Assembly: GCA_902543855.1 (NCBI GenBank)
Contig: CACBZW010000001.1
Location: forward strand, 8,979-72,978
Length of the DNA: 64,000 nucleotides
Direction of reading: 5' to 3'
From: an uncultured Alphaproteobacteria bacterium
GTDB taxonomy: Bacteria; Pseudomonadota; Alphaproteobacteria; HIMB59
The position numbers and the translations under genes were made by a program. The notes under the pieces are model-generated. The model searched no databases, was not told the DNA's origin, and worked only from the letters and a program-made list of their open reading frames with translations. The number at the start of each line of letters is the position of its first letter. Position 1 is the first letter of the stretch. Positions 7,846 to 8,958 of this stretch are shown one piece after another.

Positions 7846-8339
7846 TGCAATACTCCTTAACTACTGATGCAGGATTACCCACTTCAGAAAATCATACATT
7901 TAATGATGATGTGGAGAAGGGTATTGCCATATTTAAATTACAAAGTGGTAGATATTACATAACCCATAGTAATTTTATGGCTAAGAAAGTTCGTTCTTAT
8001 GCTTTGGGTTTATTTGAAAATGATACCTTAAGAGAAGATAAACCTATCGAATTCGTTGAATTCTATCGTTTAGGTACTTCAAAACGCAAAACATATGGTG
8101 CTACTTCTGATAGTAGGGTAGTTGCTGAAAAGAACTTAGCTGAATTTCACAATTCTATTTATTTCAATGCCGCTAGAAAATATGGTGCTGAAAATGTAAT
8201 TAGTGAAAACTTCCGTAAATATGGTGAGGAAGGCTTTGAATCTAAAACATCATATGTAAATGAGATGATGAACCATCTTGTTTATGGGGAGATGCTTACT
8301 GTTTTAAAGGAATATCCCAAAGGGGGTAAGTATGAATAG
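7845..8339 (+). CDS. Divergent GIY-YIG nuclease-fold-like protein
   Basis: GIAIFKLQSGRYYIT...KPIEFVE...KYGAENV resembles the viral GIY-YIG pattern, with canonical residues altered. Confidence 0.4.
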   Translation: MQYSLTTDAGLPTSENHTFNDDVEKGIAIFKLQSGRYYITHSNFMAKKVRSYALGLFENDTLREDKPIEFVEFYRLGTSKRKTYGATSDSRVVAEKNLAEFHNSIYFNAARKYGAENVISENFRKYGEEGFESKTSYVNEMMNHLVYGEMLTVLKEYPKGGKYE

Positions 8340-8958
8340 AGGCAAAATCCCTGCACATCTAATTAAAAAATCCACTCCAATAGGTAGAGTTGGTTTTATG
8401 TTTTTAGATGAAGAGTCTATTGATTATGAGTTTCAGAAGGAGTTAGGGGAATATCAATGTTCTCTCTTCATACACTCAGATCACATAGGTACTCTTAAAG
8501 ATGATATTGATACATTACTAGAAACAACCGCAAGTGAGGTAAGGTCTAATCAACAAATATTTAAATCTTACCCTTATGAAATATTACATGGCGGTAGTGT
8601 TCAGAAGTATTTTGATATAGTAGGTTTTAAAGCTGAGCCTGGTGATATGCTTCTTAAAGCAAAAACTAAAGCTCACTTTAGAGATAGGAAAACTGGTTTA
8701 CTAAAACCAAATCCTATTAAAGTACTAGACCCGCAAGGTAATATAATGAAATCTGTTCCTTATACCCTTAAAGGTTCTAGAGCTAAAATAACCTACAATC
8801 TATTTCCTTGGAGCTTTGGTGGTAAAGCAGGAGTTAGATGTTCTTTACATGAAGTAAATTTTATTGAGTTAAAAGAATTTGTTTCAGAAGTAAATGTTGA
8901 AGATGCATCTACTCCCTCACAAAAAGTTGATACAGGGGAATATGGTATCAATAAATAA
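8332..8958 (+). CDS. T7 gp2.5-like single-stranded DNA-binding protein
   Basis: KAHFRDRKTG...VLDPQGNIMKSVP...GSRAKITYNLFPW...GVRCSLHEVNFIEL aligns by eye with the recalled T7 gp2.5 OB-fold core. Confidence 0.75.
   Translation: MNRGKIPAHLIKKSTPIGRVGFMFLDEESIDYEFQKELGEYQCSLFIHSDHIGTLKDDIDTLLETTASEVRSNQQIFKSYPYEILHGGSVQKYFDIVGFKAEPGDMLLKAKTKAHFRDRKTGLLKPNPIKVLDPQGNIMKSVPYTLKGSRAKITYNLFPWSFGGKAGVRCSLHEVNFIELKEFVSEVNVEDASTPSQKVDTGEYGINK

What the first reader, a model, noticed from the sequence alone, without database searches (positions are those of the whole stretch)
8332..8958. T7 gp2.5-like SSB without the acidic tail and terminal Phe: possible dominant-negative anti-phage factor
Seen: the core matches gp2.5 by eye, but the protein ends ...STPSQKVDTGEYGINK rather than in a long Asp/Glu run ending in Phe. 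Established: the T7 gp2.5 acidic tail and terminal Phe are needed for polymerase and helicase interaction; tail-less gp2.5 binds ssDNA more tightly and inhibits T7 growth. Inference: the element captured a helper SSB and remodelled it either to poison helper replication or to serve its own polymerase.
Basis: partly seen in the sequence, partly recalled or inferred. Interest (0 to 1): 0.75.

Follow-up and report, generated by a model that had tools for sequence, protein, structure and literature searches.

The report
Tail-remodelled T7-type SSB of a mini-element

Summary
Observation confirmed. ORF 8332-8958 (208 aa) belongs to the gp2.5 family (Pfam PF21265 E 3.6e-15; PDB 1JE5 E 5.8e-7; AF2 model to 1JE5, Foldseek E 1.9e-12). 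It ends ...KVDTGEYGINK, with no acidic run and no terminal Phe.

Interpretation partly supported. The gene lies in a 4.8-kb element bounded by perfect 66-nt tRNA-Thr repeats. The cassette is PolA-like gene / small ORF / GIY-YIG-like gene / SSB / integrase. It recurs in 15 metagenome contigs, two of which carry the attP junction of the excised circle.

The element SSBs form one clade (100/100) on a long stem and are at most 34% identical to any other gp2.5. None of 12 distinct copies ends in an aromatic residue, whereas 20 of 20 non-element relatives do (T7, pelagiphage HTVC011P, two T7-like prophages, 16 metagenome representatives). So this was not a recent capture.

The tail is not simply missing. 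The window's subclade keeps a disordered, mildly acidic 25-aa tail ending [VIL]-D-x-G-[DE]-Y-G-[IL]-N-K, conserved down to 53% identity with synonymous codon changes. The sister subclade has only a 9-14-aa stub.

Best reading: the element's own replication/recombination SSB with a re-targeted docking peptide. Helper poisoning is neither shown nor excluded. The scan's earlier notes concern this same window only.

The parts
8332..8958 (+). gp2.5-family SSB / ssDNA-annealing protein, 208 aa
   Evidence: Pfam PF21265 E 3.6e-15, phrog_112 E 4.5e-17. PDB 1JE5 E 5.8e-7. AF2 pLDDT 83.5 with Foldseek best hit 1JE5 at E 1.9e-12. T7 K109 and Y158 equivalents retained as K111 and W160.
8881..8955 (+). Disordered C-terminal tail, residues 184-208; the linker is variable between relatives
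   Evidence: pLDDT below 50 for 184-208. The linker sequence differs between relatives while the tip is kept.
8926..8955 (+). Conserved terminal motif [VIL]-D-x-G-[DE]-Y-G-[IL]-N-K (here VDTGEYGINK)
   Evidence: Kept in six distinct sequences down to 53% identity, with synonymous changes in the Gly, Glu, Tyr, Gly and Lys codons. It occurs once in the 691-kb genome.
8320..8326 (+). Shine-Dalgarno-like AAGGGGG inside the end of the upstream ORF; the two ORFs overlap at 8332-8339
   Evidence: Read from the sequence. The GIY-YIG-like ORF and the SSB ORF overlap by 1-14 nt in all 10 related loci.
7845..8339 (+). GIY-YIG-like protein (164 aa), translationally coupled to the SSB
   Evidence: AF2 pLDDT 81. 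VIA-align best hit is the I-TevI catalytic domain (Z 7.3, rmsd 2.6, 79 aa), followed by UvrC-N, T4 EndoII and Slx1. Foldseek is weak (UvrC GIY-YIG, E 0.12). No Pfam hit.
7537..7845 (+). First gene of the operon: small protein (102 aa) with a basic N-terminus and an acidic/aromatic C-terminus ...SAFDDYFEEDK
   Evidence: Function unknown.
5848..7365 (-). PolA-like (divPolA2-type) protein, 505 aa; the element's only polymerase candidate
   Evidence: phrog_4756 E 1.8e-19. The L007 orthologue hits 115 Rheinheimera barbaviruses at E 2e-7 to 6e-7, the phage group in which divPolA2 was defined (PMC11348598). Motifs ELDYS, R-x3-K-x-F and IHDG seen by eye. No Pfam, PDB-sequence or hhalign support.
9136..10110 (-). 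Tyrosine integrase
   Evidence: PF00589 E 1e-19, phrog_1 E 3.3e-44.
5377..5442 (.). Distal att repeat (copy of the tRNA-Thr 3' part)
   Evidence: Perfect 66-nt direct repeat with 10191-10256.
10191..10256 (.). att repeat within tRNA-Thr(ggt), which spans 10192-10266 on the minus strand
   Evidence: The attP junction (right arm, core, left arm, with no host flank) is present in metagenome contigs L002 and L003.

Best explanation
The protein is the resident ssDNA-binding (and probably strand-annealing) protein of a self-replicating 4.8-kb integrative mini-element. After excision from tRNA-Thr the circle is copied by the element's own machinery: a thumb-less, exonuclease-less PolA-like enzyme (5848-7365) and a GIY-YIG-like protein (7845-8339), which may act as a nickase. 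The SSB is made in fixed ratio with the GIY-YIG-like protein through translational coupling and coats the displaced or exposed strand. The canonical T7 contact, in which an acidic tail with a terminal Phe docks on a T7-type DNA polymerase or helicase, was given up at the base of this element lineage. In the window's subclade a flexible 25-aa tail ends in a new conserved peptide, D-x-G-[DE]-Y-G-[IL]-N-K, which most likely docks on a partner that is not a T7-type replisome. That partner could be the element's polymerase, its nuclease, or a host protein.

Shown: fold and family; retained DNA-binding residues; loss of the canonical tail in the whole element clade; purifying selection on the new tip; the conserved cassette; and the excised circular form.

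Inferred: the replication or annealing role, the partner of the tail, and strand-displacement or rolling-circle synthesis.
For: Family and fold.

ssDNA-binding positions are kept. The T7 K109 equivalent is basic in 27 of 28 sequences, including all nine element copies. The T7 Y158 equivalent is aromatic in 28 of 28 and is W160 here.

The element is bounded by a perfect 66-nt att repeat at tRNA-Thr.

The cassette recurs in L002-L015 with ordered co-divergence. For SSB / orf505 / orf164 the identities are 92/87/82% in L003, 71/60/47% in L004, 53/36/28% in L005 and about 38/28/43% in L012-L015.

The orf164 and SSB ORFs overlap by 1-14 nt in 10 of 10 loci.

L002 and L003 carry attP without host flanks. 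L003 closes on itself (77-nt overlap, 4776-bp circle). L007, L012 and L015 wrap or repeat with periods of 5556, 4837 and 4815 bp.

The element SSBs are monophyletic at 100/100. No terminal aromatic occurs in any of them, against 20 of 20 other family members.

The tail tip is conserved with synonymous codon variation across 53-100% identical proteins. The tail is predicted disordered, as expected for a short linear docking motif.

The polymerase-like gene links to divPolA2. The GIY-YIG-like fold of the upstream gene is supported.
Against: No biochemical or expression data exist. The partner of the tail is unknown: no polymerase-like segment correlates with the tail type, and no complex prediction was possible.

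The polymerase assignment of orf505 is indirect. There is no Pfam, PDB-sequence or hhalign support, and the divPolA2 authors themselves leave open that it is a repair DNAP or an RNA polymerase.

The catalytic status of the GIY-YIG-like protein is unclear, since the classic Tyr residues are not obviously kept.

The sister subclade manages with a 9-14-aa stub, so the new tip is not essential to the family's basic mechanism.

A core replication role and an anti-helper effect are not mutually exclusive.
Confidence: 0.6

Rival explanations
1. Dominant-negative interference. On helper infection the element floods the cell with a gp2.5-type SSB that coats phage ssDNA. Because it lacks the acidic, Phe-ended tail, a T7-type polymerase or helicase cannot displace or engage it, so helper replication stalls to the element's benefit.
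For: gp2.5 lacking the C-terminal Phe is dominant lethal (title of Marintcheva 2009). In the simulations of PMC12339929 the delta-21C mutant stays bound to ssDNA and raises the barrier to displacement by T7 DNAP, and its truncated-SSB experiments agree. T7-like temperate phages with canonical SSB tails exist in this host group: HTVC011P and the G126 prophage. Every element SSB lacks the terminal aromatic.
Against: The gene is a universally conserved core gene. It is translationally coupled to a nuclease-like gene and lies next to the element's own polymerase-like gene, whereas interference genes of known satellites are usually variable cargo. It is only 23% identical to the pelagiphage SSB, so mixed dimers are unlikely. 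The strongly conserved new C-terminal peptide has no role in a pure loss-of-contact model. No helper is identified and there is no DNA similarity to any known phage.
Confidence: 0.12
2. Recombination module. The GIY-YIG-like nuclease and the gp2.5-type annealing protein work as a nuclease/annealase pair, in the way that exonuclease/SSAP pairs do. They would make or resolve concatemers, or drive recombination-dependent replication, rather than act at a replication fork.
For: gp2.5 is a recognised phage recombinase family with annealing activity, dependent on the long helix and a basic residue just after it (PMC2896510). The model has the long helix 53-69, followed by an Arg (R71) that is invariant among the close relatives and kept in the stub-tail copies. 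Conserved coupling to a nuclease-fold gene. Tandem or wrapped contigs are compatible with concatemers.
Against: Nuclease activity of orf164 is not shown. Tandem contigs may be assembly artefacts of circles. This reading overlaps with the best explanation rather than excluding it.
Confidence: 0.2
3. Hijack adaptor. The new tail tip recruits a helper-phage or host replisome component to element DNA, so that the SSB redirects foreign replication machinery onto the element.
For: The tip D-x-G-[DE]-Y resembles the G-D-F ends of canonical family members (T7 ...DEDGDF, G126 ...EEGDF) with four residues added. This is compatible with a modified polymerase-docking peptide.
Against: The aromatic residue is no longer C-terminal and the acidic run is nearly gone. 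The element carries its own polymerase-like gene. The sister subclade has no tail at all.
Confidence: 0.06
4. Decaying remnant of a T7-like prophage: a truncated, non-functional SSB gene.
For: T7-like pelagiphages integrate at tRNA genes and encode both an integrase and a gp2.5-type SSB.
Against: The element is intact, with perfect att repeats, and occurs as an excised circle. The ORF is full length and under purifying selection, with orthologues from 37 to 100% identity. There is no other T7-like gene and no DNA similarity to phages.
Confidence: 0.02

Closest known systems
Bacteriophage T7 gene 2.5 protein (PDB 1JE5; Pfam PF21265)
   Same: OB-fold core with the long alpha helix. Significant sequence and fold match. 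Equivalents of the DNA-contact residues K109 and Y158 are kept. A disordered C-terminal tail follows the core at the same point (ELKEF183 against ELATF183).
   Different: Only about 23% identity. The tail is 25 aa instead of 49, with net charge about -3 instead of -19, and it ends in Lys, with the only aromatic five residues from the end. There is a clade-specific 8-aa insertion (HGGSVQKY region, helix 87-97). It is encoded by a 4.8-kb integrative element, not by a phage with a T7-type DNAP and helicase.
SSBs of T7-like pelagiphages and prophages (HTVC011P; prophage in same-order genome G126)
   Same: Same protein family, same host group, and a temperate, tRNA-integrating genetic context.
   Different: They keep acidic tails ending ...SSDF and ...EEGDF. 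Their genes are followed by endonuclease I and T7-type primase and DNAP genes. HTVC011P is 23% identical to the window protein, and both fall outside the element clade in the tree.
[quoted passage not shown] 2022, PMC9618062)
   Same: A roughly 5-kb tyrosine-integrase element at a tRNA in a Pelagibacter-like genome, with an excised circular or possibly concatemeric form in metagenomes. Some Pelagibacter-associated VEIME modules are reported to carry DNA polymerase genes.
   Different: Encapsidation and helper dependence are not shown here. No capsid, terminase or regulator genes are present. No match was found in IMG/VR contigs. The paper's datasets could not be searched, so identity with a VEIME module is untested.
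divPolA2 (Yutin et al. 2024, PMC11348598), the neighbouring gene's family
   Same: The element's 505-aa protein and its orthologues match barbavirus proteins, the group where divPolA2 was defined. Both are thumb-less and exonuclease-less PolA-like proteins.
   Different: In phages divPolA2 is an accessory gene beside a replicative PolB. Here it is the only polymerase candidate and is paired with a gp2.5-type SSB.

Membership tests
gp2.5 / SBB_T7 family (PF21265) | Sequence match above the curated threshold | tested here: met
   56.4 bits against a cut-off of 27, E 3.6e-15. phrog_112 E 4.5e-17. 1JE5 E 5.8e-7.
gp2.5 / SBB_T7 family (PF21265) | OB fold with the long alpha-1 helix typical of gp2.5 | tested here: met
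   AF2 pLDDT 83.5, helix 53-69. Foldseek best hit 1JE5 at E 1.9e-12, TM 0.63/0.72.
gp2.5 / SBB_T7 family (PF21265) | Conserved ssDNA-contact residues (T7 K109 and Y158; their roles are taken from my own knowledge of T7 mutant studies) | tested here: met
   K111 and W160 align to them. The first is basic in 27 of 28 family members and the second aromatic in 28 of 28.
gp2.5 / SBB_T7 family (PF21265) | Long acidic C-terminal tail ending in an aromatic residue (the polymerase/helicase docking element) | tested here: not met
   Net charge of the tail is -3 and it ends in Lys. None of 12 distinct element copies has a terminal aromatic, against 20 of 20 other members.
gp2.5 / SBB_T7 family (PF21265) | ssDNA binding, dimerisation and strand annealing | not testable with these tools
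   Needs purified protein.
Phage satellite / VEIME | Small integrase-bearing element with att sites at a tRNA | tested here: met
   4.8 kb, perfect 66-nt repeats, tRNA-Thr, intact integrase.
Phage satellite / VEIME | Excision to a circular form | tested here: met
   attP junction without host flanks in L002 and L003; L003 closes as a 4776-bp circle.
Phage satellite / VEIME | Packaged in helper virions, typically as concatemers | tested here: inconclusive
   Tandem or wrapped contigs L007, L012 and L015 could be concatemers or assembly of circles. No hit in IMG/VR. The origin of the samples is not available.
Phage satellite / VEIME | Dependence on, or interference with, a helper phage | not testable with these tools
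   No helper identified. No DNA similarity to known phages beyond the tRNA part.
Nuclease/annealase recombination pair | Annealing protein adjacent to and co-expressed with a nuclease | tested here: inconclusive
   ORF overlap in 10 of 10 loci. The upstream protein has a GIY-YIG-like fold at modest scores (Z 7.3). Catalytic residues were not verified.

The most novel reading that the evidence does not exclude
The element lineage has taken apart the canonical SSB tail. The ancestral ...G-D-F end is buried inside a new tip (G-E-Y-G-I-N-K) or deleted, and an SSB-like acidic/aromatic peptide (S-A-F-D-x-x-F plus acidic residues) sits on a separate small protein encoded first in the same operon. The result would be an SSB that T7-type helper polymerases cannot strip from ssDNA, while the element's own thumb-less PolA-like enzyme, with the trans-acting tail protein, can. 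One gene set would then both replicate the element and block the helper.
Probability: 0.08. Interest if true: 0.75.

Novelty: new variant of a known kind. Interest (0 to 1): 0.45.

Why it matters
The acidic, Phe-ended tail is treated as the hallmark by which T7-type SSBs, and bacterial SSBs generally, talk to their replisomes. Here a whole natural clade has abandoned it, and one branch has replaced it with a different conserved peptide. It is paired with a minimal PolA-like enzyme of a family that, as far as I could find, has not been tested biochemically. That gives a compact four- or five-gene system in which to ask how an SSB is handed over to a polymerase without the classical tail. It also lets one ask whether 5-kb elements of SAR11-type bacteria replicate autonomously, and whether tail-less SSBs are used in nature against T7-like phages. 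On its own the protein is a moderate curiosity; the interest lies mostly in the element family it belongs to.

Tried and rejected
1. Recent capture from a phage is rejected. The best INPHARED hits are 26-30% identical, the pelagiphage SSB is 23% identical, and the element clade sits on a long stem.

2. The apparent terminal 'WF' of the nearest outgroup protein P0006 is rejected. It is a code-4 gene call reading TGA TTT TAA in L013; sister loci stop with TAA directly.

3. A hidden acidic tail through read-through or frameshift was not found.

4. Close relatives in genomes: none in 70 same-genus genomes. In 187 same-order genomes the only other hit above the Pfam cut-off is a canonical T7-like prophage SSB; two further hits were weak and below the cut-off. 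Two of 401 class-level genomes have a match.

5. IMG/VR viral contigs gave no relative, either with the single protein or with the alignment.

6. A partner of the tail by presence/absence was sought: no polymerase-like segment tracks the tail type.

7. Independent support for a PolA fold of orf505 was sought. The profile against PDB sequences, Pfam, and hhalign against pelagiphage DNAP and RNAP alignments were all negative. Only the barbavirus link and motifs seen by eye remain.

8. A shared packaging or other DNA signal with known phages was sought; only tRNA-like matches appeared.

9. The motif G[DE]YG[ILVM]NK occurs nowhere else in the genome or in the phage loci held.

11. The supplementary tables of the VEIME paper are not held, so a match to a VEIME module could not be checked.

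12. Ghosh 2009 (PMC2781589) is not held, so statements on the positional requirement of the terminal Phe rest on paper titles and on PMC12339929.

Full report
**Observation.** ORF 8332-8958 (+) encodes 208 aa. It matches Pfam PF21265 (SBB_T7) at E 3.6e-15 over residues 32-180, and PHROG 112 'Gp2.5-like ssDNA binding and annealing protein' at E 4.5e-17. It matches the T7 gp2.5 crystal sequence 1JE5 at E 5.8e-7, with window ELKEF(183) aligned to T7 ELATF(183).

An AF2 model built on a 28-sequence alignment has pLDDT 83.5. It has an ordered OB core with a long helix 53-69, and residues 184-208 are disordered. Its best Foldseek match is 1JE5 (E 1.9e-12), followed by the Enc34 SSB and DUF2815 proteins. 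The equivalents of T7 K109 and Y158 are K111 and W160. These positions are basic in 27 and aromatic in 28 of the 28 family members compared.

After the core the protein has 25 residues and ends ...KVDTGEYGINK. T7 has 49 residues after the same point, 22 of its last 52 are acidic, and it ends in Phe.

**Context.** A perfect 66-nt direct repeat (5377-5442 and 10191-10256) copies the 3' part of tRNA-Thr(ggt) at 10192-10266. It bounds a 4.8-kb island containing the following genes:
- a tyrosine integrase (9136-10110, minus strand);
- the SSB;
- a 164-aa ORF whose stop overlaps the SSB start;
- a 102-aa ORF;
- a divergently transcribed 505-aa ORF (phrog_4756).

Flanking genes are ordinary cellular genes. 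The window is 26-36% G+C and has a permuted tmRNA. The assembly is 691 kb and 56% complete, and its relatives are 1.0-1.4 Mb genomes. This fits a SAR11-like streamlined alphaproteobacterium.

**Relatives.** The 5.8-billion-protein word search and the exhaustive HMMER search found only a handful of close relatives. Scanning metagenome contigs with an alignment gave 15 loci, and the genome collection gave one. tblastn with the island's five proteins shows the same cassette in these loci: polymerase-like gene, small ORF, orf164, SSB, integrase.

| Locus | SSB identity | orf505 identity | orf164 identity |
|---|---|---|---|
| L003 | 92% | 87% | 82% |
| L004 | 71% | 60% | 47% |
| L005 | 53% | 36% | 28% |
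| L012-L015 | about 38% | about 28% | about 43% |

Divergence falls in step across the genes. The orf164 and SSB ORFs overlap by 1-14 nt in all ten loci where both are complete.

L002 and L003 contain right arm, att core and left arm with no host DNA, which is the attP junction of the excised circle. L003 closes with a 77-nt overlap into a 4776-bp circle. L002, L015, L012 and L007 wrap or repeat with periods of 4829, 4815, 4837 and 5556 bp, and L005/L006 close at 8198 bp. L008 is a 12-kb relative integrated at tRNA-Cys with 47-nt repeats, and L013 abuts tRNA-Arg. The SSB is thus a core gene of a family of small, excising, probably self-replicating elements.

**The tail across the family.** A maximum-likelihood tree places the nine distinct full-length element SSBs in one clade (100/100) on a stem of about 1.6 substitutions per site. 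They are separate from 19 other gp2.5 proteins. All 19 end in an aromatic residue (18 Phe, 1 Tyr). Of these, 17 have tails with net charge between -4 and -22, and two have short ...PF tails. The set includes T7, pelagiphage HTVC011P (...SSDF) and a T7-like prophage in a same-order genome (...EEGDF). A further class-level prophage copy ends ...DDDDEGDF.

No element SSB ends in an aromatic residue. The 'WF' end of database protein P0006 is a gene-calling artefact: TGA TTT TAA in L013, while sister loci end with TAA.

Within the element clade there are two forms.
- The stub subclade (L007-L015, support 99/99) stops 9-14 residues after the core.
- The window's subclade (window, L003, L004, L005/6, L016, L017) has 28-33 residues counted from window residue 181. 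The linker is variable and the tip is [VIL]-D-x-G-[DE]-Y-G-[IL]-N-K.

The tip is invariant in pattern from 100% down to 53% overall identity, while its Gly, Glu, Tyr, Gly and Lys codons vary synonymously. That is purifying selection on a peptide, as expected for a short linear docking motif on a disordered tail. By eye, x-G-[DE]-[YF] recalls the ...G-D-F ends of canonical members. The tip may therefore be the old end with four residues added. This is inference only.

**Neighbouring genes.** orf164 has no Pfam or PDB sequence match. Its AF2 model (pLDDT 81) aligns best with the I-TevI GIY-YIG catalytic domain (Z 7.3, rmsd 2.6 over 79 residues). UvrC-N, T4 EndoII and Slx1 follow further down, and Foldseek gives weak UvrC GIY-YIG hits. 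This indicates a GIY-YIG-like fold with unverified catalytic residues.

I could confirm only three things. It belongs to phrog_4756. Its L007 orthologue hits 115 Rheinheimera barbaviruses at E about 2e-7, the group in which Yutin et al. defined divPolA2. Motifs resembling PolA motifs A, B and C are visible (ELDYS, R-x3-K-x-F, IHDG). Profile searches against PDB sequences, Pfam, and pelagiphage DNAP and RNAP alignments were negative. The divPolA2 authors leave open whether the enzyme makes DNA or RNA.

**Mechanism.** The conserved, co-diverging cassette, the translational coupling and the circular form make the simplest reading that this is the element's own SSB, and probably its annealing protein (gp2.5 is a recognised recombinase family). 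It would work with the element's polymerase-like and nuclease-like proteins. Having no T7-type DNAP or helicase to dock on, the lineage shed the canonical tail. One subclade then fixed a new terminal peptide for a partner that I could not identify.

Loss of the terminal Phe is dominant lethal in T7. In the simulations of PMC12339929 the tail-truncated gp2.5 stays on ssDNA and resists displacement by the polymerase, and that paper's experiments with a truncated SSB agree. T7-like phages with canonical SSBs do infect this host group.

Three points argue against it as the main function: the core-gene status, the low identity to phage SSBs (23%), and the conserved new tip. No helper is known and no phage-like DNA signal is present. 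The two roles could coexist.

**Comparison and novelty.** The protein is a member of the gp2.5 family by sequence, fold and DNA-binding residues, but it fails the family's tail criterion. The element resembles the small Pelagibacter-associated VEIME satellites, but encapsidation and helper dependence are untested. I found no paper describing tail-less gp2.5-type SSBs in such elements. I rate it a new variant of a known kind, of moderate interest. The earlier notes of this scan all concern this same window; nothing similar was recorded on other DNA.

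Noticed in passing
window 7537-7845; L012:6934-7386, L013:3669-4139, L014:1934-2398, L015:1836-2300: The first gene of the SSB operon encodes a small protein with a basic N-terminus and an SSB-like acidic/aromatic C-terminus: window ...SAFDDYFEEDK, L014 ...SAFDEEFDDEY, L012 ...SEFDREFGYDE. The counterparts in L004, L005, L007 and L008 lack it. It may be an acidic tail supplied in trans.
   Followed up: partly
L008:2375-14423: A 12-kb relative of the element is integrated at tRNA-Cys (47-nt repeats). It has the same polymerase-like / orf164 / SSB core plus a bona fide GIY-YIG gene (PF01541, E 1.9e-6) directly after the SSB, two MORN-repeat proteins and about eight unknown ORFs.
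   Followed up: partly
L017:352-2524: In an alphaproteobacterial MAG the related element carries an Mrr-type restriction endonuclease domain (PF13156) and a helicase C-domain protein between the SSB and the integrase. This may be defence cargo.
   Followed up: no
L005 / L006 (8198-bp circle): A larger circular relative adds a Sel1-repeat protein and four unknown ORFs. Its SSB keeps the GEYGLNK tip at 53% identity.
   Followed up: partly
L007 (period 5556) and L012 (period 4837): The tandem copies in single contigs are not identical (98.8% and 99.4%). They could be real tandem arrays or concatemers of variants rather than simple circular-assembly overlap.
   Followed up: no
L013:5138-5176 and protein P0006: A public protein record ends ...SETAWF only because TGA was read as Trp. 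This is an example of a gene-call artefact that mimics the canonical terminal Phe.
   Followed up: yes
L023 (G126:C5:54500-74400): A T7-like prophage (RNAP, SSB, endonuclease I, primase, PolA, exonuclease) lies in a same-order genome. Its DNAP is 46% identical to that of Pelagibacter phage HTVC011P. It represents a candidate type of helper.
   Followed up: partly
window 7440-7448: TGGTATAAT, an extended -10-like sequence, lies about 90 nt upstream of the orf102-orf164-SSB operon, in the divergent region shared with the polymerase-like gene. It was seen by eye and is not listed by the promoter scan.
   Followed up: no
window 5512-5537 and 10119-10145: Paired GTGTACCCA repeats lie just inside both element ends (repeat family D2). 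They are likely integrase arm-type sites.
   Followed up: no
window 8581-8631 (SSB residues 84-100): The stretch PYEILHGGSVQKYxDI(T/V)G is specific to the element clade and is its most conserved part. It includes an 8-aa insertion relative to phage gp2.5 and is modelled as an extra helix 87-97. It may be a new interaction surface.
   Followed up: partly
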